From Enterobacteria phage JenP1, in sequence record NC_029028.1: DNA of 60,754 nt. The stretch is one strand, 5' to 3'. The translations under genes and the position numbers were made by a program. Positions 35,108-55,205 of the stretch are shown piece after piece (positions within the stretch are counted from its first letter, which is position 1; every line of letters starts with the position of its first letter). Below the pieces are notes generated by a model, which was not told where the DNA came from, searched no databases, and was given only the letters and a program-made list of their open reading frames with translations.

Positions 35108-35136
35108 ACTATAACCCCTCTAAAAGAACTATGCAA
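35108..35136 (-). promoter_or_regulatory. sigma70-like promoter (TTGCAT-17-TATAGT) for leftward operon
   Basis: on minus strand: -35 TTGCAT, 17-bp spacer, -10 TATAGT, then GAGGA RBS and ATG at 35052. Confidence 0.45.
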
Positions 35137-35148
35137 TATTTTAGTTAA

Positions 35149-35871
35149 TTAATTTAAGCCACGTTCTTTTACCCAGACCCCTAATGTATTACTTGATGTA
35201 TTACGCTTCACACCTTGTGCCTCTAAACGATCCATCATTTGTTTTCTAAGCTGAAGGATTTCCTTCTTGTCATGAGGTTCACCAGCTTCTTTCCACATTT
35301 CGTCAGCAACAGCGAAAATAATATCGCGAGTGCCGGCTGTACGCGACGTTGCGGCACGTTTTTCGTTTGCCGGTGTGCTAGTACCTTGCCGCTCTCTTGT
35401 CGGTGTCCATACCCCTTGTATGCCCATATTTGTTTGTACGGTTGGGCCGTCAATGATGGTGGATTCCAATGAACTATCATTCCGTACTTGAATATTAGGC
35501 TCCTCCCCCAAATCTGGAACAGAGCTGCCTTCGCGGTACATGCACTCACCCTCTTTATTACTAGCAATTGCCCAGTCCGCTTGTTCAGCCACATCCGCAT
35601 CTATTACTGTCTCCGGTATTTCATTTAAAAAGTAATGGATGATCTTACTGATCATTTTCTTTGGATATAAAGCACCTTGCTTATTACCCGTTAAGTTGAT
35701 GTACAAAAGTTGCATTTGCACATCATCAAACTCTTTATACAGTTCTTCAACTTCTAACGGAAGAACTACAGAACTTTCGCTACAGCATAGAATTCCATAC
35801 TCATGAAGACGTTGGAAGTTTGGATGCTTAGCTAATATCTGCATCCGATCGTAATCAATTAAGACGTACAT
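35149..35871 (-). CDS. hypothetical protein
   Basis: 240 aa from ATG 35871 (ORF track 35949); start abuts upstream stop. Confidence 0.4.
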   Translation of the reverse strand: MYVLIDYDRMQILAKHPNFQRLHEYGILCCSESSVVLPLEVEELYKEFDDVQMQLLYINLTGNKQGALYPKKMISKIIHYFLNEIPETVIDADVAEQADWAIASNKEGECMYREGSSVPDLGEEPNIQVRNDSSLESTIIDGPTVQTNMGIQGVWTPTRERQGTSTPANEKRAATSRTAGTRDIIFAVADEMWKEAGEPHDKKEILQLRKQMMDRLEAQGVKRNTSSNTLGVWVKERGLN

Positions 35872-35872
35872 G

Positions 35873-36112
35873 TTAATCCTTCCACCACTCGGGCCCACAA
35901 TACATTCCACGTAGTTCTTCACGCATGTAATTTTCAAACTCGTCTTCAATGTTGATTACTTGACTTTCGTGAAAAACTGCCACACCATGAATAAATCGTT
36001 TAGCTCTTTCCCCTTTAATTACACCGTAACCTAACTCCTCCCACTCTTTAAAAGTTTTCCATTCACCTTCTTCCGGTGAATGGTCGTCACTTCTAAACGT
36101 CATCTTTGCCAT
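35873..36112 (-). CDS. hypothetical small protein
   Basis: 79 aa from internal ATG 36112, directly after helicase stop. Confidence 0.35.
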   Translation of the reverse strand: MAKMTFRSDDHSPEEGEWKTFKEWEELGYGVIKGERAKRFIHGVAVFHESQVINIEDEFENYMREELRGMYCGPEWWKD

Positions 36113-36119
36113 ATAAGCC

Positions 36120-38123: not shown

Positions 38124-39074
38124 TTACTCACCGTAATAATCTGCTGCTTCGTATTGACCACATGCTGCCATCTGGTCTTCCTTCGTTAACACACCTTCGG
38201 TTCCATCGGTGATGTATGCAGTAGCAGAAGCTACTTTAATTGCACATCTCCAGGTTCCATCTTCAAGCGGATAAGAGTGCTTACAGGTGCGGCAGTTAAC
38301 TTCAGGCATCTTATTGTTGTGACATACCGCCTTGTGGTCACACCATTTGCATTTATAGTAAGACTTACTTTCATTGATCTTAGGTGGTGGGCATTCTGCC
38401 AGTGCAATTACAAATCCACGGTCTTTGTAGCGTTCTGCGGTTTCTTTATCAAACGGTACAAGCTCTGCCCAAATCTCGTCCGTGTTCTTGTTGACTGCAA
38501 TATAAAGAGCGGCTGGGAGTCCATAATACAACATGTATTCCTGCATCTGAACATAGTGTTCCCATTTGGATTCCATCACACCATTAACGACAAGTTTCTT
38601 GAATGAATCGTTATTGTGCGTTTTCATCTCCGTTAAGATTGGTGTAGAAGGTTGTGGCATGTCAGGGCAACCAATGACAATACCATCTATCGCGGAGCCA
38701 AAGTGCCCGTTGAGATAGCTAACTCGATACTGGCTGCCATTTTCGTCTTGTTGGATGACTTGCATACCGGCGGTAAGTAGTAAGGCCACGAAGCGACCTT
38801 CTTCAAGATGCCCGCGATTGAATAGACGTAAGGTTTTACCGTTAAAGTGTGGTTTAGTTGCCCATCGCCATCCGTAGAAGATTGCTCTACTACATTCTTG
38901 CCCGATAAGACTAATCCCAAGATGCGAACGGAATCCGCCATCTCCCTCTCGATATGCGTCTTCAATATGCGGTAATACTTTTCCGAGCCATACTCTGTAA
39001 GCGGATCCTTGATCTCGTTCAATACAGTCATTGAATAACTCCATTGTCCTAGTAGCAGGATAAAAATGTGGCAT
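38124..39074 (-). CDS. PD-(D/E)xK nuclease, RecB-family/Cas4-like with C-terminal Cys cluster (putative exonuclease)
   Basis: motifs AIDGIV, LTEMK, QMQEYMLYY (QxxxY) and multiple C-terminal cysteines. Confidence 0.5.
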   Translation of the reverse strand: MPHFYPATRTMELFNDCIERDQGSAYRVWLGKVLPHIEDAYREGDGGFRSHLGISLIGQECSRAIFYGWRWATKPHFNGKTLRLFNRGHLEEGRFVALLLTAGMQVIQQDENGSQYRVSYLNGHFGSAIDGIVIGCPDMPQPSTPILTEMKTHNNDSFKKLVVNGVMESKWEHYVQMQEYMLYYGLPAALYIAVNKNTDEIWAELVPFDKETAERYKDRGFVIALAECPPPKINESKSYYKCKWCDHKAVCHNNKMPEVNCRTCKHSYPLEDGTWRCAIKVASATAYITDGTEGVLTKEDQMAACGQYEAADYYGE

Positions 39075-39090
39075 ATCATAATCCTATATA

Positions 39091-39117
39091 GAAAAATAAA
39101 GCTCCCGAAGGAGCTTT
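39091..39117 (-). terminator. intrinsic terminator/attenuator
   Basis: minus strand hairpin AAAGCTCC-ttcg-GGAGCTTT followed by ATTTTTC. Confidence 0.5.
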
Positions 39118-39136
39118 ATTATAACATGATTTTTAA

Positions 39137-40084
39137 TTACTGTGCAGCGTCATCGCCTTCAGTGGAACGTTTCCACGGTGGAGTCTTGGTCTGAGCTGCT
39201 TTAGCGATATCGTCCTGGACTTCTGGTTCTGCATGGTTAGCAGTACCAGTATTCTGAGCTTGAGTTTGTGGTTGCTCTGCTCCAGGTTGTACCTGCTGAG
39301 TTGCCCAGTTAGGTTGCTGCTGAGTCTGCTGCTGCGGTTGCTGCGCACCAGTAGCCCACGGTTGAGATTGTGCCGCACTGTTAAAATCAACTGTTCCAGA
39401 CTGCTGAGGTTGCTGCTGTTGCTGTACCGGCTGCTGCGGCTGTTGTTGCTGTTGTTGCTGTTGTTGCTGCTGGAACCCCTGAGTCTGAGGTTGCTGCTGC
39501 TGTTGCTGCTGTTGCTGCGGCTGCTGCCCAAATGCGCCCGGGAAACCCTGCTGCGGTTGCTGCTGTGGCTGCTGAGTACCACCGAACGCACCGCCACCAA
39601 ATGCTGGAGACTGTGCTGCCGCTGCCGGAGTTGATTTAGGCAGGTTAGCCATGTCCGCCTTAGTTGCGTATACAACACCTTCCATATTATCAATTGCTTG
39701 ATAAATCTGAGGTTCGTTGTTTGGCTCATAGCCAGGTTGCTGACGAACTTTCACTTTCAGGTTGAACGGAATACCGTGCAGTTGTTCGGTATCGTTCCAA
39801 ACTGGAACTTTAACAGCACGAGACAGCTCTGCCAGTTCTTCCATTGCAATCTGTACAGCGACAGGGTTTGCGTTCTTGACGTTGTAACCGCCAAACATCA
39901 CACGACCAGCAAAATCACCCTGCATAATCTTAAACTGAAGATTCAGACGCGCACCGCCTGGAGTTTTAGTCGGTTTGATCTCAGAGTTTACAATCTGAAC
40001 AACATACCAACCAGCGGGCATCAAGCTATTGTGTTGACGCTCTGCGTGTTGTCCAGCGTTAAATTGCATTCCTAAACCGGCCAT
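39137..40084 (-). CDS. DUF669-like putative ssDNA-binding protein with long poly-Gln linker
   Basis: N-terminal WYVVQIVNSEIKPTKTPGGARLNLQFKIMQGDFAGRVMFGGYNV resembles DUF669 family; central ~60-residue Q-rich tract; adjacent to Sak4-like ATPase. Confidence 0.5.
   Translation of the reverse strand: MAGLGMQFNAGQHAERQHNSLMPAGWYVVQIVNSEIKPTKTPGGARLNLQFKIMQGDFAGRVMFGGYNVKNANPVAVQIAMEELAELSRAVKVPVWNDTEQLHGIPFNLKVKVRQQPGYEPNNEPQIYQAIDNMEGVVYATKADMANLPKSTPAAAAQSPAFGGGAFGGTQQPQQQPQQGFPGAFGQQPQQQQQQQQQPQTQGFQQQQQQQQQQQPQQPVQQQQQPQQSGTVDFNSAAQSQPWATGAQQPQQQTQQQPNWATQQVQPGAEQPQTQAQNTGTANHAEPEVQDDIAKAAQTKTPPWKRSTEGDDAAQ
39395..39600 (-). repeat. CAG/CAA trinucleotide-rich tract encoding poly-glutamine
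   Basis: runs of CTGCTG/TTGCTG on plus strand giving Q runs on minus strand. Confidence 0.8.
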
Positions 40085-40830
40085 TATTGTACCCCTTTGA
40101 TTTTGTTAATGATTGCACCGAGATGTGGATATTCCATCTGTTCTAACGAACCAGAACGATCTTTACATACATTTGACAGATCTGGTCTGGTCAGCAGATA
40201 ACGAAAATCTGCTTGAGTATTTTGGTCTTTACCAACACTAATTTTGAACACTTCGTCAAAAAAGTATGGTAGTTCTGGACCTAATTTTGCACCAGGCATA
40301 GAAGGACCGTAAGACGTAATACCTGTCAACTCATCCTTGTTACGGGACATTTTAGCTGCCATGTACACGTTAAGTCCAGGGATATCTCGAAAAGCGCGAA
40401 CTAAAGTTTGCATCTTCTCAATAAGATCCCCATAAGCCTGACGCGGATCTTTCACAGTACGCTTCGCATTGTTAAGGCACTTTTCAGCAATCTCAGTAAG
40501 TGAATCCAGCGCAAGAGACTGAAAGCGCGGTAAACCATCTTCACCTACAGGATTGTTTGCAGGGTTAGTCGCCCAAACATAAGCCTGCTCTACATCCTGG
40601 ATATTTTCAACCGTGATGGTTGGAATATCGTAGCAGATATCTGGTCTGTTTTCACCAAATACACGAGCAATGTTATTTGGTGTTAAAGATAAGAGCCCAG
40701 ACTCCGCAGAAATCAGCAACGGTCTTGGAAGAGTTGCTGTAAGCATGGTTTTACCCATACCAGATTCACCATACACAAGCATCTTGACACCAGTGTCCAG
40801 AACTGCTTGAGCGGTAGTTGTAAATTGCAT
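40084..40830 (-). CDS. Sak4-like RecA-fold ATPase (single-strand annealing/recombination)
   Basis: Walker A VYGESGMGKT near N-terminus, ~250 aa, next to DUF669 gene. Confidence 0.55.
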   Translation of the reverse strand: MQFTTTAQAVLDTGVKMLVYGESGMGKTMLTATLPRPLLISAESGLLSLTPNNIARVFGENRPDICYDIPTITVENIQDVEQAYVWATNPANNPVGEDGLPRFQSLALDSLTEIAEKCLNNAKRTVKDPRQAYGDLIEKMQTLVRAFRDIPGLNVYMAAKMSRNKDELTGITSYGPSMPGAKLGPELPYFFDEVFKISVGKDQNTQADFRYLLTRPDLSNVCKDRSGSLEQMEYPHLGAIINKIKGVQ

Positions 40831-40894
40831 AAGTTACCTCTTGTGTGGTTACGGCTGCAATACTAGGACCCAATTACCCTGAATGCAAACGTGA

Positions 40895-41839
40895 TTATTC
40901 ACTAATATCCGTTGGATCACGGAAACTTTGATGCGTAGGAATACGCAATTTGTCCTTCATACCGTGAGCAAAGAATTTCCATTTAGAAATCTTCCCAATA
41001 AATTCATCGGGATGCTCAAAGTAATATTTACGTTCTTCATGCGTAAGACGACCAGCACCTACACGCATTTCTTGTCCAACTTCAATAAGATCTTCAAGAC
41101 CTTCCGGTACTGTAAGAACGCGAACATCAAACGAACCAACCATACCATTCGGTATCATATTAGCTTGGTGGCTTGAACGATACGTCTGCCCTAATTCATT
41201 AATCTGCGCTTCATTCTCGTTGGTGCAACCTTCGATAATACGAATGATCTCACCTTCACCATCAGTAAAACGTTTAATGCGGAGATAACCGCCTTCACGC
41301 TGCGTACTACGACCCCATTTATATTTCGCTTCAAGGTCACGAATGATTACACCTTCGTACCCCATATCAAGCCAAATATTTTCCCACTCCAGGAGTTCTT
41401 GTTCGTTGTTGACCACATACAGCGGCACAACCTTCACGTCCATTAACTCGCCGTTAGCGTGGCATTCGTCCACGTACTTCTTGAGCATGTCATAACGCTC
41501 TTTGTACGGCAGATGTGCAACGTTTGGTTCGCACAAATCGAATACATGCCACGTCCAAACGTATTCACCTTCAATTTTAGATGTTGCACTACTTGTCTTA
41601 CGACATAAGTCAAAGTCCGTCTCTTCTCCAACGGCAAGCTCACCGTCCATGCCATCGTAAATGGAAGATCCAAATACCTTTGCGACCTGCTTATTTGCAA
41701 AAGATTTAAGACTTCGTCCAACAAGCTCCCCGAACGGTTTCATCCCACGAACTCCGTCAATTTTAGGCATGACGCCTACGGGGTATTTCTGTTTAGCTGA
41801 ATCCCAATCTGTTGCTAGATAAGGTTTAAATCGAGCCAT
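40895..41839 (-). CDS. ATP-dependent DNA ligase
   Basis: adenylation motif KIDGVRG near N-terminus, ~314 aa. Confidence 0.75.
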   Translation of the reverse strand: MARFKPYLATDWDSAKQKYPVGVMPKIDGVRGMKPFGELVGRSLKSFANKQVAKVFGSSIYDGMDGELAVGEETDFDLCRKTSSATSKIEGEYVWTWHVFDLCEPNVAHLPYKERYDMLKKYVDECHANGELMDVKVVPLYVVNNEQELLEWENIWLDMGYEGVIIRDLEAKYKWGRSTQREGGYLRIKRFTDGEGEIIRIIEGCTNENEAQINELGQTYRSSHQANMIPNGMVGSFDVRVLTVPEGLEDLIEVGQEMRVGAGRLTHEERKYYFEHPDEFIGKISKWKFFAHGMKDKLRIPTHQSFRDPTDISE

Positions 41840-42416
41840 TGAAATTTACCTTTGTGTGTTCCCGAACAAGAAGTTTTAACTTCCTAACCCAAGATTGCTG
41901 TTTCTCAATGTTAACTTTCTTCGGTTTAGGAATAACGGATTTTGCTGTATCTACTTTCAATTTATCGTAGTCCATGCGACGTCTACCTGTTCGCATGTGC
42001 ATACCCGCAATTTCATCGCACTTGTCTTGTGCAAGGCTACGGGAATCCATCCTACCTGAATGACCTTTAACATGACGGAACTGGAAACTAAGTCTATTCT
42101 CAACAATAGTATCCATGAACCATTTATAAATTTGTTGCTCTTCTCCTCTTGGTGGACGTTTACCTTCGAACATATGGATAGCTGCTTTGCAATCCGTCTG
42201 GAACAATATAACGTCGTTTGTGTAGATAAGTCCAGCCTCTATACCGTGATATAAACCGTTAGCTACTGCAATACATTCAACTACGGTATTATCCGTGTGA
42301 CCATGTGCAGGGCCACCAAAAGCCTTCTTACCCCGTTTGGAGGCTACCCAAATTCCATAGCCTCCACATTTAGTACGGTGACAGAACGACGCATCCGATA
42401 TTATCGTGATGAGCAT
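41826..42416 (-). CDS. ribonuclease H
   Basis: ISDASF...GGYGI and FRHVKGHSG...DKCDEIA resemble RNase HI catalytic motifs. Confidence 0.65.
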   Translation of the reverse strand: MLITIISDASFCHRTKCGGYGIWVASKRGKKAFGGPAHGHTDNTVVECIAVANGLYHGIEAGLIYTNDVILFQTDCKAAIHMFEGKRPPRGEEQQIYKWFMDTIVENRLSFQFRHVKGHSGRMDSRSLAQDKCDEIAGMHMRTGRRRMDYDKLKVDTAKSVIPKPKKVNIEKQQSWVRKLKLLVREHTKVNFNGSI

Positions 42417-42842
42417 TCAACCCTTCTTAACAGCGATCTTAACCTGTGGAGAACCTGGAGTTGTGGTCACGCATTCGTCAAAGATCGCCAACTGTTCAGC
42501 TGTGAGCTTACGATATGCAGCCACACGGAGTTCTACTTTAGTTTCAGTAACTTCGTTGACATCCACACCAGCTTCAATAAGATCTGGTAAGATCTGACTA
42601 AAGATCGCCTTATCAACTTTACGCGTATAAGGTTGAGTAACAACAAGATCGTCACCTGTATCAAGTTTGATCTTATTAGTGTTTTCGTTAAGACCATCAG
42701 GAAAGAACACGCTAACCACACTTTGACGCAGTGCGCGTTCTTGCGCTTGCACTTTGGCTAATTCTTCTTTCTTAGAATACCAGTTATAAAGAAGTTCGTA
42801 TTTCTGCTCTTCAGTTAAGTTCATTTCTGGTAACTGGACCAT
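42417..42842 (-). CDS. hypothetical protein
   Basis: 141 aa ORF, no motif recognised. Confidence 0.4.
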   Translation of the reverse strand: MVQLPEMNLTEEQKYELLYNWYSKKEELAKVQAQERALRQSVVSVFFPDGLNENTNKIKLDTGDDLVVTQPYTRKVDKAIFSQILPDLIEAGVDVNEVTETKVELRVAAYRKLTAEQLAIFDECVTTTPGSPQVKIAVKKG

Positions 42843-42917
42843 GTTATTGCCCTCGTTGTTTGCTAATAGGGGTATAATACTTAGAATTAAATTCCTTGTA
42901 AATACCCCTAAATATGA

Positions 42918-43460
42918 TTACAACTTACCAGTAGAACCAAAACCCCCGCGGCCTGTTTCTTCTACAATACCAGAAACAATACGCGTACGAACCAACTCCA
43001 CAAGACGTGCCTGTGCAATACGTTCGCCAACCTGAACTGTGTAAGGTGCATAAGAGTCGTTGTGCAGACGTATTTTTAACTCATCTCGGTAATCGTGATC
43101 AATGATACCTGTACAGTTACCTAAACGAATCCCGTGTTTAAACCCATGACCGCTACGTGAATAGACTTCCATACCGTAACCATGAGGGATCTGCAGCTTA
43201 ATACCCGTGTTGAACGTGTACGCACGACCAGCATAGATTGTCACAGGTTCAGGTTCATCTGCGTAGATGTCGAAGCACATAGAACCAGGAGTAGCAAATC
43301 GTGGCATTTGAGCAGTGTCAGTAAGAAGCTCCACAATTAGCTGTTCCACAGTAATACCTTTCACAGCACCGTCTTCGACTACAATAGTACCTTTGACAGT
43401 TGCATCTTTAATAACATTAGACATATCGTCTTTCTTATTCATGTTTTTCACTCTCTTCAT
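42918..43460 (-). CDS. dut: dUTP diphosphatase
   Basis: motifs YSRSGHGFKHGIRLGN, GIIDHDYRDE, GERIAQ, GRGGFGSTG; start codon uncertain (several in-frame ATGs). Confidence 0.8.
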   Translation of the reverse strand: MKRVKNMNKKDDMSNVIKDATVKGTIVVEDGAVKGITVEQLIVELLTDTAQMPRFATPGSMCFDIYADEPEPVTIYAGRAYTFNTGIKLQIPHGYGMEVYSRSGHGFKHGIRLGNCTGIIDHDYRDELKIRLHNDSYAPYTVQVGERIAQARLVELVRTRIVSGIVEETGRGGFGSTGKL

Positions 43461-43590
43461 TAGTTAGACGTTGTTCCCATTGTTGCTTTAACTGATAATA
43501 ACGATAAGCATCCTCACCAGTTTCAGCTTCCCGTTGCATACGTTCACACCATTGAACGGGACTTTCCTCACAACTCACTTCTTACACCTC

Positions 43591-44052
43591 CTAAGCGTGA
43601 CCATTCCTCTTGATATATTCATAGGCATGTGATTTAAAGATTATCCGAAAATCTTCCAGGGATATTTCACATCTCGGCGGATCTTCGGGGTGATGTTTCG
43701 CTTCATCAGCGAAAAGCATGATAGGATTCATATACAGGACTACGCGCCAGGGCTTTTTATTCTGACGGTACATAAGAACTGGAAACTTGTCTGCTTCTAA
43801 TGCACTCTTAACACACTGTGCCCACCATGTGTTAATTGATAACTGTTCCTGGCGTTTAACTTCCACCGCATAGAAACAGGTATTTGTGATATCGCAACCA
43901 CCTACGGCACTCTGATTCTGGTTACGCTGCGCTATGGGCTTTTCTGGATAAGTCATTCCAAGAGCGGCGTAAATTTCTTCGTAGATATCATTAAAGAATT
44001 TACAAATCTCACGCTCGCCTGTCTGACCTTTAGTACGAGGATTAGCTCCCAT
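43591..44052 (-). CDS. putative PD-(D/E)xK-type endonuclease (resolvase-like), weak
   Basis: GGAG RBS before ATG 44052; acidic residues GCDIT...AVEVKRQE compatible with D...ExK; terminator hairpin immediately upstream. Confidence 0.3.
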   Translation of the reverse strand: MGANPRTKGQTGEREICKFFNDIYEEIYAALGMTYPEKPIAQRNQNQSAVGGCDITNTCFYAVEVKRQEQLSINTWWAQCVKSALEADKFPVLMYRQNKKPWRVVLYMNPIMLFADEAKHHPEDPPRCEISLEDFRIIFKSHAYEYIKRNGHA

Positions 44053-44071
44053 GTTATAAATCTCCATCTAA

Positions 44072-44100
44072 AAAATAGGGGGTACACAAGTACCCCCGAA
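44072..44100 (-). terminator. intrinsic terminator on minus strand
   Basis: minus strand GGGGGTAC-ttgt-GTACCCCC followed by TATTTTTT. Confidence 0.6.
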
Positions 44101-44238
44101 AGCGAAGCATATAATAGATAATAACATGTCAGCGAGAGACAGCCTTCGAAAAGGGGTAATCTACCAACCACTCTCGCAAATAATGTTAACCTGTTTACGT
44201 GTTTGATTACAATACACGAATTCGTCAGAATTCACAGG

Positions 44239-44514
44239 TCATACCGTACATTTTTGCCAATGGCCCATAGAAAATGACAGCGAAGTGCAAACAACTTCCA
44301 GCCCGTTATCATCACGTACCACAGGCAAAGCTAGGCCGCTACGGACATTGTGTACCGTGCGGTGAACTCTATACACAGAGTTATGCGTAAAGCGCCGCGT
44401 GTTCGCGTTTGTGCAGCGTAATAACGCTCCGATATGTACAAGTGGCGCAGGCATAGTAAAGCCAATCATCATGTCCTTTTCTTTCTTATTAGGCTGGCGT
44501 ACAGTTACATTCAT
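44239..44514 (-). CDS. hypothetical protein
   Basis: 91 aa; ATGA overlap with upstream small ORF. Confidence 0.4.
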   Translation of the reverse strand: MNVTVRQPNKKEKDMMIGFTMPAPLVHIGALLRCTNANTRRFTHNSVYRVHRTVHNVRSGLALPVVRDDNGLEVVCTSLSFSMGHWQKCTV

Positions 44515-44690
44515 TGTGTCGTCTCCTCATTTAAAGATTCCAGGCGCTCACCTAACAGAATGAGCGATTTAATTTGATGTGGCTTCTTGCCAAGATGTTC
44601 AGCAATGTGGTTATAAGTAAAACCTTTCTCCCGCATACGATAAGCAGTAATAGCGGCATTGCGATTGCGGATATCGGTTTTCTTACTCAT
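44511..44690 (-). CDS. small helix-turn-helix protein (not in ORF track, 59 aa)
   Basis: ATG 44690 to TGA 44511; MSKKTDIRNRNAAITAYRMREKGFTYNHIAEHLGKK... has HTH-like pattern. Confidence 0.4.
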   Translation of the reverse strand: MSKKTDIRNRNAAITAYRMREKGFTYNHIAEHLGKKPHQIKSLILLGERLESLNEETTQ

Positions 44691-44995
44691 GGTAAACTAA
44701 TTCTCCTTAATTTAGCTTCAATACGATTAATTAACATGGACATGCTACGATCTGCAATCATATGATGCGGTTCGTAGTAACCATATGCCCAATAGTTTAC
44801 CTCTTGCCCACAATGATTACAATTAATCTGTGACTCGCACACAGGCGAATAGTAACCATCAGCTTGAGCTACAACAGTCTCTGTAAACTCAGTGTGACCA
44901 CACTTTGGGCATCGTATACACTTCATTTCCTTGTCGTAGTTTGAGCGAAAAGTATAAGGCTTCCACCCCAACACCTTGTATATTTTACTAGGCAT
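44687..44995 (-). CDS. zinc-ribbon protein
   Basis: 102 aa with CIRCPKCGH and CNHCGQ Cys pairs. Confidence 0.45.
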   Translation of the reverse strand: MPSKIYKVLGWKPYTFRSNYDKEMKCIRCPKCGHTEFTETVVAQADGYYSPVCESQINCNHCGQEVNYWAYGYYEPHHMIADRSMSMLINRIEAKLRRISLP

Positions 44996-45219
44996 TAGTG
45001 TAGATTCTCTTTAGGTTGTTCTTCGCTCGTCATAAGACTTAACAAGACGCGGCACGTATTTGAGTTTCTCCAAGCTACCTCAATTTCATCTAACGAGGAT
45101 TCTGGTTTACATAAGCGATAGGCTTCCATGAAGGAATTCTGGGCTGCTTCAACGATTGCCAGAGACACCAACACTCTTTCGTCTATCATTGTCATCATTT
45201 CTTCACATTTATCACACAT
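44995..45219 (-). CDS. hypothetical protein
   Basis: 74 aa ORF in early array. Confidence 0.35.
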   Translation of the reverse strand: MCDKCEEMMTMIDERVLVSLAIVEAAQNSFMEAYRLCKPESSLDEIEVAWRNSNTCRVLLSLMTSEEQPKENLH

Positions 45220-45236
45220 ATTATTTCTCCAGTGTC

Positions 45237-45458
45237 TTAATCATCAATTAATGTGATATCATCCACAAAAAATAAGCTATCATTCTGGATACATTTACGT
45301 CGATTAATAATATCGTCGACATTGTAGTCCATCAAGGAAGGGTACTCGACCTCATCCTTCATACAAGGCCCATACACACTTAGACCTAACTCAGCCAAAT
45401 GCTGCATGAATCCTTCAAGAGATTTTTTAGTATAAATTGTCGTTTTTAATTTACCCAT
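45237..45458 (-). CDS. hypothetical protein
   Basis: 73 aa ORF in early array. Confidence 0.35.
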   Translation of the reverse strand: MGKLKTTIYTKKSLEGFMQHLAELGLSVYGPCMKDEVEYPSLMDYNVDDIINRRKCIQNDSLFFVDDITLIDD

Positions 45459-45494
45459 CGCCCACTCCTTAAATCTTTAATGACAAACTGGAAG

Positions 45495-45692
45495 TTAAAA
45501 GAACGTACCAGTAAGCACATACAGCACAGCGTCACGCAGTGTTGGTAACAAAGGTGAGCAGTTAGGAACGCTGTAGAATTTACGTGATCCCACTTTAACA
45601 CTCACTATTGTAATAGAACGTTTATTGCGCTCTACTGCGTAGAGACCACCACCAAGACGACGGACTTTATATAGAGGTTGATGCTTTTGCAT
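45495..45692 (-). CDS. hypothetical protein
   Basis: 65 aa ORF in early array. Confidence 0.35.
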   Translation of the reverse strand: MQKHQPLYKVRRLGGGLYAVERNKRSITIVSVKVGSRKFYSVPNCSPLLPTLRDAVLYVLTGTFF

Positions 45693-45709
45693 GTTTTAAC
45701 TCCTTTCGT

Positions 45710-45988
45710 TTATTTGCTAACACGTATGGCTCTACCTGTTAAGAAGGTGTATTCACAGTGCCGCATTAAGTCACGTTCTTCTATTACACTTCGTAACTGG
45801 CGTGACAGCGTTTCATAGTAAGGACGGGCCTCGTTCCTACTAATAGCTAAAGCATAGGCGAACAGTTGCTCCGAGTCAATACGATTAGACTTGATTCTTT
45901 TGATTGCTTGCTCAATTCCTGGGAACTCCTCATCCTGGTATAGAGCACCGTACACAATTTTAATAGCTGCTAGATTGTAACTGGACAT
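45710..45988 (-). CDS. hypothetical protein
   Basis: 92 aa ORF in early array. Confidence 0.35.
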   Translation of the reverse strand: MSSYNLAAIKIVYGALYQDEEFPGIEQAIKRIKSNRIDSEQLFAYALAISRNEARPYYETLSRQLRSVIEERDLMRHCEYTFLTGRAIRVSK

Positions 45989-46023
45989 TTGACCCTCGGA
46001 CGTAAAATAATTCTTGATACCTA

Positions 46024-46051
46024 TTGCATTCCTAAGGAAATGCTCTATAGT
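46024..46051 (+). promoter_or_regulatory. sigma70-like promoter (TTGCAT-16-TATAGT)
   Basis: near-consensus hexamers upstream of GGAGGAA RBS and ATG 46087. Confidence 0.45.
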
Positions 46052-46086
46052 ATGTATTATACAGTTTGTAAGCGGAGGAACACAAA

Positions 46087-46317
46087 ATGACTCACCAAGA
46101 TCTTATAAAAAGAAACATCAGAACTACAATGAACAAATCAGAGGAATTCTCACATAACTGTACCGATGGTACTCATAAAATTAGATATGAATATATGGGA
46201 TCCTCAACTGTGGTTACATTTGAGAAAGATGAGTATCACGTTGGAGATTTTTCAACACCAGATTACGACGAGATGTTTGAATACGTTGTATGTGGGTTCT
46301 TAAAATTGCACGAATAA
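46087..46317 (+). CDS. hypothetical protein, stand-alone transcription unit
   Basis: 76 aa; own promoter, strong RBS and terminator; opposite orientation to flanking genes. Confidence 0.5.
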   Translation: MTHQDLIKRNIRTTMNKSEEFSHNCTDGTHKIRYEYMGSSTVVTFEKDEYHVGDFSTPDYDEMFEYVVCGFLKLHE

Positions 46318-46321
46318 TATA

Positions 46322-46349
46322 ATGGGCGCATATAGCGCCCATTTTTTTT
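46322..46349 (+). terminator. intrinsic terminator
   Basis: stem ATGGGCGC / GCGCCCAT followed by TTTTTTTT. Confidence 0.65.
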
Positions 46350-48897
46350 ATAACTTAATAATCTTCTCCATACGTTCGATATCCACTAAATAACACTTCA
46401 TTCTCGGTGGTACAAAATCAGGACCGAATAAACTTGAGAAGTCCATAGGCCTCATTTCAGCAAGAACTTCCATAGACATCAGACCATAAATTGTATTGTC
46501 TATGACCTGCAATATGTTGTCGTTTCTTGTCTGCTTGAACGCTTTAAATTGCCTACAATAAGTACATAAATCACTCCGTGTAACTATAAACGAGTCCTTG
46601 AACATTGGGAATTTATCATACACATAAGCCTTCACTTCCCCGTCCAGGAATCTTTTTATAGTGGCAAGCATTATCTTCTCACGGCTTGTACTGTCTGTAG
46701 ACCCAATTTGCCCACTATTACGCTTCTCTAAGAAACGCTCGTTACCCTGATCAATAAAGGACTCAGCCCAACGATAATGTTCCATAGTAACAACAGGTCG
46801 TTCACTGTTATCCGCCACAGCAAGAAGAGAGGCGATACGCAATACCTTCAACGCCTTCCTTGTGTACATCTGACGAATTACTTCGTCTTGCACCTGCTCA
46901 CCATCATTGCCGCTGTTCAGGAACTTCGCAACAACATTATCAAGATTATCAAACGCTTCGTGTACCTCTGCTTCCATTTCAACATAACACGGAGCAGTCC
47001 CTGACATAATACGCACAGCTTGTTTATAGATAGCTCCAATAGTGCGTAGAATTGCTTCTGGATATTCCAGGAGCATACTTTTATTCATCAACGGTCTGTC
47101 AGCTGTACATTCCCATGCGATAATACGGGACATGAAGCCACTCGACATCATGCGGTCATCAACGTTCCCGTAAAATTCATCCGGTGTCGTTTCACCTGCA
47201 AAACTATACGCCTTGACCTTACCGCCAGCAGTCGTATTATCTTTACTAGAGTGCTTTGAACCACCAGAGAAAGCATAGAAATGCCCCTTGTCATAAAGGG
47301 AAAGCATTTCATCCATAATGTCTTTAGCTTTACCGACTTCCATCTTACCGTTACGGAAAAATGCACCGACTTCAGTCTTATAGTTGATGGATGAGCCACA
47401 AGACATAACGGACGTATCCATTATGACGTCCTTGCGCAATGCAGCGTCAGACGCATAGGTACTTGTATCCAAGACACGTTCGATACCAAATATCTGCTGA
47501 CCGTCTTGACCGCCATAATTGGATACTTGAGAAAGAATAGTTTCAATGTTGGAGCGAAACGCTTCTTTACCAATACCAGAACGTGCAATTAGTACAAAGT
47601 AGTTATTCAAACCACTTCGTGTAACTGTGTTCCACGCCTTACCGCACATACCACTAAATAAAGCAAGAGCAGACAGAATACTAATGTCTTTAATAGGCAA
47701 CAAGCTCGCTTTATACATATTACGCGCAACCTCGCCCATAAAGCCCGGAGGCCAAGCCAAACCGTCTGCCTGCTCTTCAGTGTAATTGCCATCTGTGGTC
47801 AACACTTCTTCTGGTGGGCGTTCTGGTGTAGTTGCTTGACGTAGTTTTTCCGTGCGCTCTATAGCTGCATTAACGTTATTCTGAACTATCTGCATAAGTC
47901 CCATAGATTTAACATGGGCATCATAGCGGTAGTTGCGAATCATTCTATCCAGGTGATACGGACGTTTGATTTTTTCACCAGGCAGACGACGGGAATCATC
48001 GTAACGACTACTCATTGGCGAATACATGAACAGACGTCTTACCTGGAAATTGTACTTACTCTTAAAGCAAAGAAAGTCAATTAATGCAAACTCTGCTTCA
48101 GACTGAGAAGGGAAACAACGTTCACCGATAGAAGTATCAACTTCTTCATCTCTCCAACGACCTTCCCATAGCTGCTTAAACAATGTTCCGTTTTCTTGTT
48201 CACACAACTGAATATAAACATCCTGGTCTTCCATTGCATATGGGTCGTTACTAAAATCTTCTTCAGTAAGTTCCAGCATTTGGAAGCCATCAGACTCATT
48301 AATCTCACTCATCTCAGACATAAGCTGATGAATGAGATTAGCGATATACCCTTCGCTTTCACTGCCTGGAGCACCAGACACAGTACGCGGAGTAATATCC
48401 CAGTGATCACCTGTACAGATAATAAAGCGATACTGTGAATACACTTCCACACCATCGCGGCGCTTACCAGCCTGAGGTATGGAATAAATCCATGTGTGCA
48501 ACCCATCACCGCTTCTGGAAATTTCCGTATAGCTATGGAACGATTCAACAATCTTCTTATATCGCTCACCAGCAACTTTCTTTTCCATTTCAGACATGGT
48601 ATCTTTAATGTCCATGTCGATACAACAGAACGGGTCACTTGAAAGTAGATAGAAACCTAAACGCAAGTTATGGCCAATCTCGTTATAATAACGAACGCAG
48701 CGTTCAGCATCTTCAAAAGACATAAGTAAATGCAGGTTAGACGGTTTCTTATCGTTGCCGTCTTTACGAAGTGGGACCATATCCCCTAAATCATCGTCCC
48801 ATACATAAGGTTGTTTTTCTGATGATGTACCTGGATGGAAACCGCAGACAGCCCACTGTTCGTATTGTTTAATTTCTTGAGGAAAAAGTTCCAGCAT
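46348..48897 (-). CDS. DNA primase-polymerase (AEP/Prim-Pol superfamily) with large C-terminal domain
   Basis: 849 aa; N-terminal motifs CIDMDIKD (DxD) and SRSGDGLHTW (sxH). Confidence 0.55.
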   Translation of the reverse strand: MLELFPQEIKQYEQWAVCGFHPGTSSEKQPYVWDDDLGDMVPLRKDGNDKKPSNLHLLMSFEDAERCVRYYNEIGHNLRLGFYLLSSDPFCCIDMDIKDTMSEMEKKVAGERYKKIVESFHSYTEISRSGDGLHTWIYSIPQAGKRRDGVEVYSQYRFIICTGDHWDITPRTVSGAPGSESEGYIANLIHQLMSEMSEINESDGFQMLELTEEDFSNDPYAMEDQDVYIQLCEQENGTLFKQLWEGRWRDEEVDTSIGERCFPSQSEAEFALIDFLCFKSKYNFQVRRLFMYSPMSSRYDDSRRLPGEKIKRPYHLDRMIRNYRYDAHVKSMGLMQIVQNNVNAAIERTEKLRQATTPERPPEEVLTTDGNYTEEQADGLAWPPGFMGEVARNMYKASLLPIKDISILSALALFSGMCGKAWNTVTRSGLNNYFVLIARSGIGKEAFRSNIETILSQVSNYGGQDGQQIFGIERVLDTSTYASDAALRKDVIMDTSVMSCGSSINYKTEVGAFFRNGKMEVGKAKDIMDEMLSLYDKGHFYAFSGGSKHSSKDNTTAGGKVKAYSFAGETTPDEFYGNVDDRMMSSGFMSRIIAWECTADRPLMNKSMLLEYPEAILRTIGAIYKQAVRIMSGTAPCYVEMEAEVHEAFDNLDNVVAKFLNSGNDGEQVQDEVIRQMYTRKALKVLRIASLLAVADNSERPVVTMEHYRWAESFIDQGNERFLEKRNSGQIGSTDSTSREKIMLATIKRFLDGEVKAYVYDKFPMFKDSFIVTRSDLCTYCRQFKAFKQTRNDNILQVIDNTIYGLMSMEVLAEMRPMDFSSLFGPDFVPPRMKCYLVDIERMEKIIKL

Positions 48898-48906
48898 GTT
48901 ATTACC

Positions 48907-49143
48907 TTAAAACGTAGCGGGATTAATTTCAAATAACGAACGTGATGGTACAACATCAAAGTTGACATCTACCAGCTTAAAAGAATTCGTGTAAACACAC
49001 CATGTACCAACTTTTTCATTAAAGACGGGCTTGTCATTATTAAATGCGTACACGCAACCATCAGAATCTGTTGCAATATATCTTGTGTCTTTTGGTACTT
49101 CTACATCTGAACCATAATAGTGAACGGTAATTAAATCTGACAT
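48907..49143 (-). CDS. hypothetical protein
   Basis: 78 aa ORF. Confidence 0.35.
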   Translation of the reverse strand: MSDLITVHYYGSDVEVPKDTRYIATDSDGCVYAFNNDKPVFNEKVGTWCVYTNSFKLVDVNFDVVPSRSLFEINPATF

Positions 49144-49216
49144 GTTATTCTCCTACGATCCATTAGGACACACATAGTATATACTGATGGATCGCAGGGG
49201 GCTAACCCCCTGCAAA

Positions 49217-49630
49217 TTATGGTACTAAGACCCAACGACAGGTGATAGGTTTACACATTATCTCTTCTTTAGAGATGTTTATACGATCCTTAAAAATAAT
49301 TCTTGGATAAAAATATTTCATATAGTTATCAGAAGCTACCTTATATTCTGTCTTTAATATACGAGCACTAACAACAAATTTTAAATCTTCCCAATCTTTC
49401 ATAGAGTCAGCAAAAGACAAGATACGCCCATTTCCACGGACTTTTGCTGAAGACTGAGAAGGCAACTTGTGGTTAATGTCACATGGTAGATCTAAGGATT
49501 TATCTTTAAAGAATTTACTTCCACCATTAAAAAATTTACTCACATCAAAAGAGCCAATTTCCAAAGTATGGATATTTTGACCTTTAATTGGTTCTTCAAA
49601 CTTAACATCGACAACGAGTTTGACTAACAT
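49217..49630 (-). CDS. hypothetical protein
   Basis: 137 aa ORF. Confidence 0.4.
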   Translation of the reverse strand: MLVKLVVDVKFEEPIKGQNIHTLEIGSFDVSKFFNGGSKFFKDKSLDLPCDINHKLPSQSSAKVRGNGRILSFADSMKDWEDLKFVVSARILKTEYKVASDNYMKYFYPRIIFKDRINISKEEIMCKPITCRWVLVP

Positions 49631-49644
49631 AACTTACCCTATAA

Positions 49645-49914
49645 TCACCATAAAATTTCTACACTTTCAGTATCCATCTGACTCAATGGTTGCTTGTATG
49701 AGATTGTATATCCAAATGATACCAGTTGTTCAGTCACCTTTCTCATTGCAGGACGTGCATTAGGACTACCAATTTCACTATATGGCTTTTCAAATAATTT
49801 AATATGATCCCTGCCATCTAGAGACGCTTTAGTAATCCATTTATCCAAATCATCAAGATATGCACTTGTATCCAAGTTTTCACTATTTGTACGAGCTTCT
49901 TGTGCTGTGATCAT
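49645..49914 (-). CDS. hypothetical protein
   Basis: 89 aa ORF. Confidence 0.35.
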   Translation of the reverse strand: MITAQEARTNSENLDTSAYLDDLDKWITKASLDGRDHIKLFEKPYSEIGSPNARPAMRKVTEQLVSFGYTISYKQPLSQMDTESVEILW

Positions 49915-49916
49915 AA

Positions 49917-50132
49917 TTATTGCTCCATAGCTTGTTTGATCAATGCGTCATAAATACATTTCGCACTAGACGCGTTCCACAGTTGTTCGTCTGTCTGAAC
50001 TTCCTGGCTCCATTGCTTGTCAAATAAACCTTCTTCATACGCGTCTTTAATACGCTCGCACAAAGTAAAGATGTCGGTCTGAAGAATATCAATTTCTTCT
50101 TGGGTTAACGCAACCTGGAGTTCTTTATTCAT
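49917..50132 (-). CDS. hypothetical protein
   Basis: ATG 50132 preceded by AAGGTGA RBS (ORF track 50162). Confidence 0.4.
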   Translation of the reverse strand: MNKELQVALTQEEIDILQTDIFTLCERIKDAYEEGLFDKQWSQEVQTDEQLWNASSAKCIYDALIKQAMEQ

Positions 50133-50568
50133 CTGTATCACCTTCTTTATTCTGTTGACCACATGCTGGTGTCCATTGTCCGTTCAATGTGCGCTTAAGA
50201 TCGTCCTTGCGCATACGTTCGAACCATTCAGTGTGGTCATGTGGATTGTCGTTCACTGGTAAAATGTTACCTGCGAAATATGTACGCATAGTGTGCAACA
50301 ATTCGTCGTCCACTTCGGACTCAATACTAACACACGTTTCTTTGAAATCCATACCTTCCAGGTCCACGTTATAACAGATATCGATTTCAATACCAGGCTC
50401 AGTTAATACCCAAAAACCATCGCCATTAATACATTCACACCAACGAGGCTCATTCTCAAACGCGGTTAAAGTACCGTCCTCGTCGACCGCAAGGTATTTC
50501 GCCCACACTGGAACAAACAATACTTCACCGAAGTATCGCACAGCCTTCTGAGTAAGATTAATTTGCAT
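50125..50568 (-). CDS. hypothetical acidic protein
   Basis: ATG 50568 preceded by GGGAGGTGA RBS. Confidence 0.4.
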   Translation of the reverse strand: MQINLTQKAVRYFGEVLFVPVWAKYLAVDEDGTLTAFENEPRWCECINGDGFWVLTEPGIEIDICYNVDLEGMDFKETCVSIESEVDDELLHTMRTYFAGNILPVNDNPHDHTEWFERMRKDDLKRTLNGQWTPACGQQNKEGDTDE

Positions 50569-50911
50569 GTTCACCTCCCGTTACCAGTTCCAAAGTCTCA
50601 CGAAGTAGACGTTCGACCTTCGATTTATTTTTGATAAGCTGATATTGCCGATCCACCACAAGCGCCTTCTCGCGGTTACGCATAAGGTATTCGAACGCAC
50701 TTTGAAAATCTTCGACATTACCCGTGTAACCTAAAGCCTTGGCGACGTGCGACACACGATGGAACAGAAAGTCCGCAAAGTCCATAATTTCCATCGCATT
50801 GACAATAGCGTCAAGTAAATCCGGATTTGTATTCGGGTCAACCTTTTTAGCTTGTTCAAGAAGTTGCACCTTTGCTTTATATAAAGGTGAATTGCTTACT
50901 GTTTGCATCAC
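50558..50911 (-). CDS. hypothetical protein
   Basis: 117 aa ORF. Confidence 0.4.
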   Translation of the reverse strand: MMQTVSNSPLYKAKVQLLEQAKKVDPNTNPDLLDAIVNAMEIMDFADFLFHRVSHVAKALGYTGNVEDFQSAFEYLMRNREKALVVDRQYQLIKNKSKVERLLRETLELVTGGEHAN

Positions 50912-55082: not shown

Positions 55083-55175
55083 AATGCAATCTCCCTTCGG
55101 GTGAAGCGGGCGCGGAACCCGTGTCCCGCTTGAAAACCCCCTTAACCCCACGCGTTTATAATACGAATTTTAGAT

Positions 55176-55205
55176 GTTGGATGCAAGTAGCATCCAACAA
55201 TTTTT
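55176..55205 (+). terminator. terminator-like hairpin (plus-strand orientation)
   Basis: stem GTTGGATG / CATCCAAC followed by TTTTTATTATTTTTT. Confidence 0.35.

What the first reader, a model, noticed from the sequence alone, without database searches (positions are those of the whole stretch)
46024..46349. Self-contained opposite-strand mini-unit: promoter, 76-aa ORF, terminator
Within the leftward early array, a plus-strand unit carries a TTGCAT-16-TATAGT promoter, GGAGGAA RBS, a 76-aa ORF and a strong terminator whose T-run overlaps the stop of the convergent primase gene. This moron-like layout is typical of accessory genes such as regulators or anti-defence proteins.
Basis: seen in the sequence. 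Interest (0 to 1): 0.45.

Follow-up and report, generated by a model that had tools for sequence, protein, structure and literature searches.

The report
Conserved small phage gene with own promoter
A real, conserved small gene of a 9g-like E. coli phage (JenP1 gp59) sits backwards between the primase gene and a block of host-takeover genes, with its own promoter and a terminator shared with the primase; its small acidic protein has no known function, so this is a well-built but fairly ordinary "unknown" phage gene.

Summary
The window is phage JenP1 (Nonagvirus). The ORF is gp59, the ortholog of 9g gp24 (PHROG 17131), and every relative annotates it as hypothetical. TTGCAT-16-TATAGT, GGAGGA, the 76-aa ORF and a -16.6 kcal/mol hairpin whose T8 run overlaps the primase stop are all at the stated coordinates.

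The promoter match alone (8/12) is no better than chance. However, promoter, SD, ORF and hairpin keep their positions in seven lineages sharing only 24-38% protein identity. The 98-nt intergenic region is 97% invariant across 13 Nonagvirus genomes, and dN/dS is mostly 0.06-0.28.

It is not a sporadic moron. It is in all 16 Nonagvirus records and in a sister genus. Seuratvirus and Vid5 carry an analogous acidic ORF in the same slot.

Two readings are inferred from sequence only:
- The promoter looks like half of a compact bidirectional promoter. The minus-strand half (TTGTGT-18-TATAAT) would restart a leftward small-gene operon that includes an N4 gp8-like replication inhibitor.
- The hairpin looks like a bidirectional terminator that also ends the primase operon.

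The parts
46003..46013 (+). Conserved A/T-rich block (TAAAATAATTC). It is a candidate UP element for the rightward promoter and lies in the leader of the predicted leftward mRNA.
   Evidence: An A/T-rich block is kept at the same position in 7 lineages. It lies about 41-53 nt upstream of the predicted rightward start. Its function is inferred.
46024..46029 (+). P_R -35 hexamer, TTGCAT
   Evidence: Read directly. TTGCA(T/A) is at the same position, 16-17 nt from the -10, in 7 lineages. It is invariant in about 20 Nonagvirus sequences.
46046..46051 (+). P_R -10 hexamer, TATAGT. The predicted start is about 46056-46059.
   Evidence: TATAnT is kept in 7 lineages and only the fifth position varies. 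The transcription start is inferred, not mapped.
46056..46061 (-). Predicted P_L -10 hexamer (TATAAT on the minus strand). The predicted leftward start is about 46048-46051.
   Evidence: The minus strand reads TATAAT, TATAAT, TATGCT, TATAGT, TATACT, TATACT and TACACT at the same position (-26..-31 from the ATG) in 7 lineages. Three of them have an upstream TG. In CAjan the leftward promoter lies apart from the small ORF's, as TTGCAT-16-TATACT with a TG two bases upstream, next to a leftward gene. Inferred.
46080..46085 (-). Predicted P_L -35 hexamer (TTGTGT on the minus strand, spacer 18). It overlaps the conserved ACACAA before the ORF's ATG.
   Evidence: TTG(T/C)nn is kept in 7 lineages. The same bases could instead be conserved for translation initiation. 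Inferred.
46074..46079 (+). Shine-Dalgarno sequence, GGAGGA
   Evidence: Read directly. A GGA core followed by (C/T)(A/G)CAAAATG is conserved in all lineages, including CAjan and Vid5.
46087..46317 (+). 76-aa ORF (JenP1 gp59, AVU34_gp59; ortholog of 9g gp24; PHROG 17131). The protein is acidic with a predicted alpha-beta4-alpha fold.
   Evidence: identity. Codon-position variability is 13/15/37. dN/dS is mostly 0.06-0.28. pI is 5.2 and net charge -6. The AlphaFold2 model has pLDDT 78.
46147..46188 (+). Hypervariable segment (codons 21-34), the loop between helix 1 and strand 1. In SP8, BRET and JenP2 it is replaced by a different, 2-codon-shorter cassette.
   Evidence: This is the most variable 30-nt bin of the 1.9-kb alignment, with 67% variable columns. 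The cassette swap is visible. It is also the lowest-pLDDT part of the model.
46321..46349 (.). Intrinsic terminator: a 9-bp hairpin with 6 G-C pairs, followed by a T run. It is shared by the convergent ORF and the primase gene and is probably bidirectional.
   Evidence: Folding energy is -16.6 kcal/mol on the plus strand and -16.8 on the minus strand, z about -4.7. A hairpin flanked by an A tract and a T tract sits at the same place in 10 lineages. The fourth stem pair changes on both sides: C-G, A-U or U-A. In the window the minus-side tail is only AUUAUAUUAUU, so leftward termination may be partial.
46348..48897 (-). Convergent primase/helicase gene (849 aa, AEP plus DUF3987), given for context.
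44239..45988 (-). Divergent leftward block of 7 small genes, which the predicted P_L would drive. It includes an N4 gp8-type host replication inhibitor at 45495-45692.
   Evidence: ORFs. PF25713 N4_GP8 at E = 1.5e-18, above the curated cut-off. PHROG matches. The operon boundaries are inferred.
44078..44097 (-). Next strong minus-strand terminator (GGGGGTAC-TTGT-GTACCCCC, then TATTTTTT), the likely end of the leftward small-gene operon.

Best explanation
This is a genuine protein-coding transcription unit, fixed in the 9g-like phages. It forms an operon boundary inside the leftward replication/early region.

Shown by sequence and comparison:
- A sigma-70-type promoter (TTGCAT-16-TATAGT), a strong SD, a 76-aa ORF under purifying selection, and a G+C hairpin with a T run.
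- All of these keep their positions in seven lineages whose proteins are only 24-38% identical to the window's.

Inferred about how it works:
1. Host RNA polymerase fires the rightward promoter P_R without phage factors. It makes a roughly 290-nt mRNA with a ~29-nt leader.
2. The hairpin stops this mRNA. Because it is flanked by A and T tracts, it also stops, at least partly, the convergent primase operon.
3. Leftward transcription is restarted by a second promoter on the other strand (TTGTGT-18-TATAAT). Its -10 lies 4 bp from the P_R -10, so the two starts are about 9-10 bp apart and diverge. RNA polymerase could then occupy only one orientation at a time.
4. This leftward promoter (P_L) would drive a ~1.9-kb operon of seven small genes. 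One is an N4 gp8-type inhibitor of host DNA replication. gp59 would therefore be made at the same time as the host-takeover genes.
5. The protein has no enzyme or DNA-binding signature. It is acidic (net charge -6), has one fast-changing loop, and can be lost by frameshift. I take it to act by binding, and probably inhibiting, a host protein. That could be a defence factor or part of the transcription/replication machinery. The phage would need it only in some hosts.

My confidence in each step:
- The unit is real: about 0.95.
- The terminator is shared or bidirectional: about 0.75.
- The promoters are interlocked and bidirectional: about 0.55.
- The protein is a binder or inhibitor: about 0.4.
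- Any specific target: under 0.2.
For: Anatomy.

Identity: JenP1 gp59, PHROG 17131 at E = 2.8e-55.

The gene is real:
- It is intact in 11 of 12 distinct GenBank relatives and in 8 IMG/VR loci.
- There is an excess of third-position variation.
- dN/dS is mostly 0.06-0.28.

Promoter region:
- 97% of the 98 intergenic positions are invariant, against 12-35% variable columns in the neighbouring coding DNA.
- The P_R and P_L boxes are positionally conserved in 7 lineages, each with the typical TATAnT profile.
- In CAjan the leftward promoter lies apart from the small ORF's, as TTGCAT-16-TATACT (TG two bases upstream) next to a leftward gene.
- A 10-bp spacing class of bidirectional bacterial promoters is described in PMC12825309.

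Terminator:
- It folds strongly on both strands.
- A-tract/hairpin/T-tract symmetry and compensatory stem changes are seen in 10 lineages.

Synteny: the order N4gp8-like, 92-aa gene, then the ORF on the other strand, then primase is found in every lineage.

Operon content: PF25713 at E = 1.5e-18, with the next minus-strand terminator at 44097-44078.

Protein:
- pI is 4.2-5.2 in all members.
- The model is alpha-beta4-alpha at pLDDT 78.
- There is a hypervariable loop.
- Frameshift alleles occur in FritzHoffmann, L022 and P0005.
- Bas20, which carries one, forms plaques (PMC8594841).
Against: - No transcript data exist for any of these phages. Both start sites, the leftward promoter and termination in either direction are sequence inferences.
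- P_R is a weak consensus match (8/12). P_L has an 18-nt spacer and a 3/6 match at -35, and its -35 coincides with the ORF's translation start context, which could explain that conservation.
- The box I read as the P_L -10 could instead be the initial transcribed region of P_R or an operator.
- In the window's genus the minus-side U tract is poor. The primase transcript may therefore read through, antisense to the ORF.
- Vid5 shows no convincing leftward promoter at the equivalent place.
- The protein's function rests on general properties only. There is no significant sequence or fold relative.
- Bas20 (frameshifted) is not reported as more restriction-sensitive than Bas19 (intact).
- Constant adjacency to the primase could mean a replication role instead.
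Confidence: 0.5

Rival explanations
1. gp59 is a transcription regulator of the divergent promoter. It would bind the ultra-conserved intergenic region, or RNA polymerase itself, to set the balance between its own synthesis and the host-takeover operon, in the way acrR/acrA or soxR/soxS pairs work. Alternatively it would reprogram host RNA polymerase like T7 Gp2 or T4 AsiA.
For: - The gene is divergent from an operon and shares an interlocked promoter with it, the classic layout for regulators.
- The intergenic region is more conserved than coding DNA.
- The N-terminal helix is basic (KRNIRTTMNK).
- The 9g GenBank note says 'similar with transcription elongation factors'.
- A UniRef name calls the 9g ortholog 'DUF1797 family protein'.
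Against: - No HTH, RHH or other DNA-binding domain was found.
- Net charge is -5 to -8.5 in all members.
- No dyad operator conserved across lineages was found, and there is no exact inverted repeat in 45960-46140.
- The DUF1797 label is not reproducible with Pfam or NCBIfam.
- hhalign against YkuJ gives E = 0.22.
Confidence: 0.2
2. gp59 is an accessory factor of the phage primase/helicase or replisome. The constant adjacency to the primase gene would reflect a functional partnership.
For: - A 73-97-aa acidic ORF lies convergent to the primase in Nonagvirus, the sister genus, metagenomic lineages, Seuratvirus and Vidquintavirus.
- The neighbouring operon also targets replication (N4 gp8-like).
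Against: - It is not co-transcribed with the primase: it is on the opposite strand with its own promoter.
- Null frameshift alleles exist, one in a plaque-forming phage.
- The Seuratvirus protein in this slot shows no sequence or fold similarity. A Vid5 match is insignificant (hhalign E 0.021, probability 2.3%). A conserved partner of a conserved primase would be expected to stay recognisable.
- Adjacency is explained equally well by the shared terminator.
Confidence: 0.12
3. The main function is in cis. Convergent transcription plus the hairpin would insulate the primase operon from the small-gene operon by transcriptional interference or collision. The peptide would be secondary or dispensable.
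For: - The slot and its DNA signals (-10, leader, SD context, terminator) are conserved even where the protein is unrecognisable, as in CAjan and Vid5.
- Frameshift alleles keep the promoter and terminator intact.
Against: - There is strong purifying selection on the protein, with dN/dS mostly 0.06-0.28.
- Motifs such as DYDxMF are conserved across lineages with 24-38% identity.
- About 95% of sampled alleles are intact: clusters of 109 and 20 members against a handful of truncated ones.
Confidence: 0.12
4. It is a recently acquired moron, that is, a horizontally inserted accessory cassette.
For: - It has its own promoter and terminator.
- It is on the opposite strand.
- Its GC content is low: 34.2% against 43.2%.
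Against: - It is present at the same site in every relative examined.
- Its regulatory DNA is homologous as far out as Vidquintavirus.
- No relative was found in which the 92-aa gene directly abuts the primase.
Confidence: 0.05

Closest known systems
Phage morons (autonomous promoter-gene-terminator cassettes, as defined for lambdoid phages by Hendrix and colleagues; from my own knowledge)
   Same: It is a single small gene with its own sigma-70-type promoter and intrinsic terminator. It is oriented against the surrounding operon and has lower GC than the genome.
   Different: It shows no presence/absence polymorphism and is fixed across a genus and beyond. The phage is virulent rather than a prophage. 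The promoter and terminator are shared with the neighbouring operons rather than private.
Prokaryotic bidirectional promoters (Grainger laboratory; divergent starts 10, 18 or 23 bp apart; PMC12825309)
   Same: Two -10 hexamers lie on opposite strands within about 16 bp. The predicted divergent starts are about 9-10 bp apart. The region sits between divergent protein-coding genes, and RNA polymerase binding would be mutually exclusive.
   Different: The starts are not mapped here. Each half also has its own -35. This is a phage setting in which one arm is a single small gene and the other a host-takeover operon.
Bidirectional intrinsic terminators between convergent genes (from my own knowledge of Term-seq/SEnd-seq studies in E. 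coli)
   Same: A G+C hairpin flanked by an A tract and a T tract lies in the 30-nt gap between two convergent stop codons. One stop codon lies inside the T run.
   Different: In the window's genus the leftward U tract is degenerate (AUUAUAUUAUU), so termination may be asymmetric.
YkuJ / DUF1797 (PDB 2FFG), an uncharacterised Bacillus protein that co-elutes with RNA polymerase
   Different: Identity is 9%. hhalign gives E = 0.22. Pfam and NCBIfam give no hit. Many unrelated folds score almost as well.
Small acidic phage inhibitors of host proteins (T7 Gp2, Ocr, anti-CRISPRs, N4 gp8)
   Same: It shares their size, acidity and lack of catalytic motifs. It is apparently expressed early from a host-type promoter, it is dispensable, and it has a fast-evolving surface loop.
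   Different: There is no homology to any of them. The target and any inhibitory activity are untested.

Membership tests
PHROG 17131 (unknown function) | Full-length match to the family HMM | tested here: met
   E = 2.8e-55, residues 1-76 against profile positions 1-76.
Moron | Own promoter and own terminator flanking a single gene | tested here: met
   The sequence elements are present and positionally conserved. Transcription is not measured.
Moron | Present in some close relatives and absent from others (an insertion between otherwise adjacent genes) | tested here: not met
   It is present in 16 of 16 Nonagvirus records, 3 sister-genus phages and all metagenomic relatives at the same site. 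No empty site was found.
Moron | Base composition different from the surrounding genome | tested here: met
   GC is 34.2% against 43.2%, in the lowest 3% of 231-nt windows.
Bidirectional promoter (10-bp class) | -10 elements on both strands arranged so that divergent starts lie about 10 bp apart | tested here: inconclusive
   Plus strand TATAGT at 46046-51 and minus strand TATAAT at 46061-56. This geometry is kept in 7 lineages. The starts are not mapped.
Bidirectional intrinsic terminator | Stable G+C hairpin followed by a U tract on both strands, between convergent genes | tested here: inconclusive
   The hairpin criterion is met on both strands. The U tract is strong on the plus strand (T8) and weak on the minus strand in the window. 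It is symmetric in the other lineages.
YkuJ-like / DUF1797 (PF08796) | Match to the family HMM or profile-level sequence similarity | tested here: not met
   No Pfam or NCBIfam hit even at E <= 10. hhalign of the family profile against YkuJ gives E = 0.22.
YkuJ-like / DUF1797 (PF08796) | Same fold | tested here: inconclusive
DNA-binding transcription regulators (HTH, RHH, Cro/CI-like) | Recognisable DNA-binding domain | tested here: not met
   No Pfam, NCBIfam or PDB-sequence hit. The protein is acidic.
Known anti-defence proteins (anti-CRISPR, Ocr/Ard and others) | Sequence or fold homology to a characterised member | tested here: not met
Known anti-defence proteins (anti-CRISPR, Ocr/Ard and others) | Inhibition of a defence system | not testable with these tools
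   This needs plating of intact against frameshifted alleles on defence-system panels.

The most novel reading that the evidence does not exclude
The slot between the primase and the host-takeover operon would be an ancient, conserved expression site in Queuovirinae-like phages. It would host a fast-evolving, replaceable acidic inhibitor of a host RNA-polymerase-, replication- or defence-associated protein. Its synthesis would be hard-wired to compete with the host-takeover operon through a 10-bp-class bidirectional promoter, giving a built-in either/or choice at each polymerase binding event.
Probability: 0.12. Interest if true: 0.55.

Novelty: new member of a known kind. Interest (0 to 1): 0.3.

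Why it matters
If the reading is right, this locus is a compact, natural example of a bidirectional promoter and a bidirectional terminator framing a single small gene. It would partition a phage replication region into separately timed operons, and it would be cheap to test. gp59 would be a candidate host-factor or defence inhibitor from a phage group already used in the BASEL collection, where a natural frameshift allele (Bas20) is at hand for comparison. Otherwise it is one more small phage gene of unknown function that is already annotated.

Tried and rejected
**Searches for relatives of the protein, all negative**
- Pfam, NCBIfam and PDB-sequence searches with the protein and with a 24-member family profile found nothing.
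- An exhaustive profile search of 1.84 billion representatives returned 10 small family proteins and fragments, plus 5 large repeat proteins that share only a TDYDxM-like motif.
- The AlphaFold database library was unavailable.

**The 'DUF1797/YkuJ' label**
- One source gives the 9g ortholog this name. It could not be reproduced.

**Homology to the slot proteins of other genera**
- The CAjan slot protein showed no sequence or fold similarity.
- A Vid5 match over TDYD plus the C-terminal helix was not significant: hhalign E 0.021, probability 2.3%.

**A non-coding RNA**
- Rfam gave nothing above the gathering score; the sub-threshold hits cluster around the ORF's 3' end and the hairpin.

**An operator-like inverted repeat**
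- No exact inverted repeat was found in the intergenic region. By eye there is only an imperfect GCATTCC/GAAATGC dyad in the P_R spacer, and it is not conserved in other lineages.

**The two overlapping ORFs annotated in other frames in Bas19 and Bas20**
- They are rejected because substitutions fall on the third position of the 76-aa frame.

**Other attempts**
- A formal pair count on the hairpin alignment was dropped because MAFFT shifted one lineage by a base. The compensatory changes are read.
- A genome-contig scan could not be run with the family alignment.
- The 9g genome paper and the BASEL paper say nothing specific about this gene.

Full report
**What the window is**

The 1-kb region around the finding matches 16 phage records, all of genus Nonagvirus (9g-like, Queuovirinae), at 89-98% identity. 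An exact look-up of the 76-aa protein identifies it as AVU34_gp59 of Enterobacteria phage JenP1, whose genome length equals the window's 60,754 bp. The ORF is the ortholog of 9g gp24. Every relative annotates it as a hypothetical protein. It matches PHROG 17131, function unknown, at E = 2.8e-55.

**Checking the observation**

Every element is at the stated place:
- TTGCAT at 46024-29, 16 nt, then TATAGT at 46046-51.
- GGAGGA at 46074-79.
- ATG at 46087 to TAA at 46317.
- A 9-bp hairpin at 46321-43.
- A run of eight T at 46342-49, whose last two bases are part of the primase stop codon (46348-50).

A crude ORF map shows the gene as a lone plus-strand ORF between long minus-strand blocks, 33395-45988 and 46348-50911.

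The promoter is an 8/12 match. It falls below the scan's own threshold, and such sites are no commoner here than in shuffled sequence. The hairpin is clearly non-random: -16.6 kcal/mol, z = -4.8.

**Evidence that it is a real gene and a real unit**

Among 13 Nonagvirus genomes:
- The 98-nt intergenic region has only 3 variable columns, against 12-35% in the flanking coding DNA.
- Within the ORF, variable columns fall 13/15/37 on codon positions 1/2/3.
- Pairwise dN/dS is mostly 0.06-0.28; one pair spanning the swapped cassette reaches 0.58.
- The only length variant is an in-frame 6-nt difference, inside a swapped cassette at codons 21-34. That cassette is the most variable stretch of the whole 1.9-kb alignment.

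Weak tblastn hits (31% identity) at the syntenic place in a sister genus led to a wider family. An exhaustive profile search of 1.84 billion representatives found only a handful of clusters of 74-97-aa proteins. Wherever enough flanking DNA was recovered, the gene lies in the same arrangement: N4 gp8-like gene and a ~90-100-aa gene on one strand, the ORF on the other, then a DUF3987 primase convergent with it.

Upstream regions from seven lineages (protein identity 24-38% to the window) align without gaps when anchored on the ATG. Only discrete boxes are conserved: TTGCA, TATAnT, a second TATAnCA box, ACAC, GGA and CAAAATG. The downstream hairpin is kept, with changes on both sides of the fourth stem pair: C-G, A-U and U-A.

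**Not a sporadic moron**

- The ORF is present in all 16 Nonagvirus records and in 8 IMG/VR contigs.
- The divergent 92-aa neighbour was found in the same 16 Nonagvirus records and 3 sister-genus phages.
- Seuratvirus CAjan and Vidquintavirus Vid5 also have a 73-74-aa acidic ORF convergent with the primase, with the same kind of terminator.
- Their -10, leader, SD and ACAAAATG start context are visibly homologous to those of the gp59 family.
- The CAjan protein shows no sequence or fold similarity. A Vid5 match is not significant (hhalign E 0.021, probability 2.3%).
- The slot and its signals are therefore old, while the protein has either diverged beyond recognition or been replaced.
- The low GC of the ORF (34.2% against 43.2%) is the one moron-like feature, besides the layout, that does hold.

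**The cis architecture (inferred)**

On the minus strand, all seven lineages carry a -10-like hexamer at -26..-31 from the ATG: TATAAT, TATAAT, TATGCT, TATAGT, TATACT, TATACT and TACACT. Three have an upstream TG. All have a TTG(T/C)nn hexamer 18 nt further upstream. In the window these are 46061-46056 and 46085-46080.

Both -10 boxes show the usual profile, with positions 1, 2 and 6 fixed and position 5 free. The predicted starts (plus about 46058, minus about 46049) diverge and lie about 9-10 bp apart. This corresponds to the 10-bp class of bacterial bidirectional promoters, in which one polymerase binding event excludes the other (PMC12825309).

In CAjan the leftward promoter lies apart from the small ORF's, as TTGCAT-16-TATACT (TG two bases upstream) directly upstream of a leftward gene. 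This supports the idea that leftward transcription is restarted downstream of the small ORF.

A restart would be needed because the hairpin is flanked by an A tract and a T tract in all lineages, so it should also stop the primase operon. In the window's genus the leftward U tract is weak, so some read-through is likely.

The leftward unit so defined runs through seven small genes (45988 to 44239) to the next strong minus-strand terminator at 44097-44078. It includes a clear homolog of the N4 gp8 host replication inhibitor (PF25713, E = 1.5e-18). The other six genes have no known function.

None of this has been checked against transcript data. I found no such data.

**The protein**

- The AlphaFold2 model (pLDDT 78) is a helix, a four-stranded meander and a helix.
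- It is acidic, with pI 5.2 and net charge -6. All family members and both slot analogs have pI 4.2-5.2.
- The YkuJ link fails the HMM and profile tests, so it is only a lead.

Null alleles exist:
- A +1 G in a GGG run in FritzHoffmann/Bas20, and in a metagenomic genome with the other cassette type (L022).
- A frameshift right after the GDF codons that removes the conserved DYDEMF helix (P0005).

Bas20 is a plaque-forming phage. The BASEL paper names only Bas19 and Bas25 among Queuovirinae as showing some sensitivity to type I/II restriction systems, so Bas20 is not reported as more sensitive than Bas19 (PMC8594841). Intact alleles greatly outnumber truncated ones, with clusters of 109 and 20 members.

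Taken together, the protein is under purifying selection, acidic and non-enzymatic. It has a hypervariable loop, is occasionally lost, and is predicted to be expressed alongside host-takeover genes. This points to a conditionally useful binding or inhibitor protein. The target is unknown.

**Verdict**

The layout and the accessory character hold. However, the unit is an ancient, fixed part of an operon boundary and shares its promoter region and terminator with its neighbours. It is an already-annotated orphan gene of a known general kind. The interlocked promoter and the shared terminator are the most testable new points. Interest is modest.

Noticed in passing
window 45495-45692 (-): The 65-aa ORF is a clear homolog of the phage N4 gp8 inhibitor of host DNA replication (PF25713, E = 1.5e-18, above the cut-off). 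The related GenBank records I looked at label it only as hypothetical. The same Pfam family is recorded for the gene at this position in three metagenomic relatives (L015, L018/L019, L022).
   Followed up: partly
window 45710-45988 (-): The 92-aa gene is labelled 'putative cysteine protease (calpain domain PF00648)' or 'protease' in 9g, RefSeq and PHROG 17339. It shows no Pfam protease match here; the only hit is Med4 at E = 0.057. The label looks like a propagated annotation. The gene was found in the same phage records as gp59, plus one more sister-genus phage (Kpn2-P2), which also carries the sister-type ORF.
   Followed up: partly
L004 (FritzHoffmann) about 2000; L022 about 1610; protein P0005: Frameshifts recur in this gene at short homopolymers. 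GGG becomes GGGG in two genomes with different cassette types, and a further frameshift falls right after the GDF codons. Bas19 and Bas20 are annotated with two short ORFs in other frames instead of the 76-aa ORF.
   Followed up: partly
window 35108-35136 (-) and 55158-55186 (-): Two further minus-strand sites have the same unusual -35 hexamer: TTGCAT-17-TATAGT and TTGCAT-17-TATTAT. TTGCAT may be this phage's preferred -35. The second site sits beside a hairpin at 55175-55199.
   Followed up: no
window 39095-39146 (-): A strong minus-strand terminator (AATAAAGCTCC-TTCG-GGAGCTTTATT, then TTTC) overlaps a promoter-like site with an extended -10 (TGCACA-17-TATAAT). This may be another terminator/promoter boundary in the leftward array.
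   Followed up: no
L008 (HdK1) 2147-3805; L009 (SE1) 2147-3999: The primase gene is annotated in two or three pieces in HdK1 and SE1, whereas it is one 849-aa ORF in the window. This could reflect frameshifts, insertions or annotation artefacts.
   Followed up: no
window 46342-46349 and relatives: The T run of the terminator varies from 5 to 11 T among Nonagvirus genomes, while the hairpin is almost invariant (one change at the stem's edge in SP8). This could tune termination efficiency without touching the primase protein.
   Followed up: no
cluster of the 9g ortholog (P0049, P0053): The identical protein is recorded on 74 contigs, including NCBI assemblies labelled Shigella sonnei. This suggests phage carry-over or carriage in bacterial isolates, which recalls the pseudolysogeny discussed in the 9g paper.
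   Followed up: no
L032 (CAjan) about 3990-4070, primase-direction strand: There is an unannotated 25-codon hydrophobic ORF (MFEILKLFAGAIFVAGYFWFMYIL) with a good SD, directly downstream of the CAjan leftward promoter.
   Followed up: no
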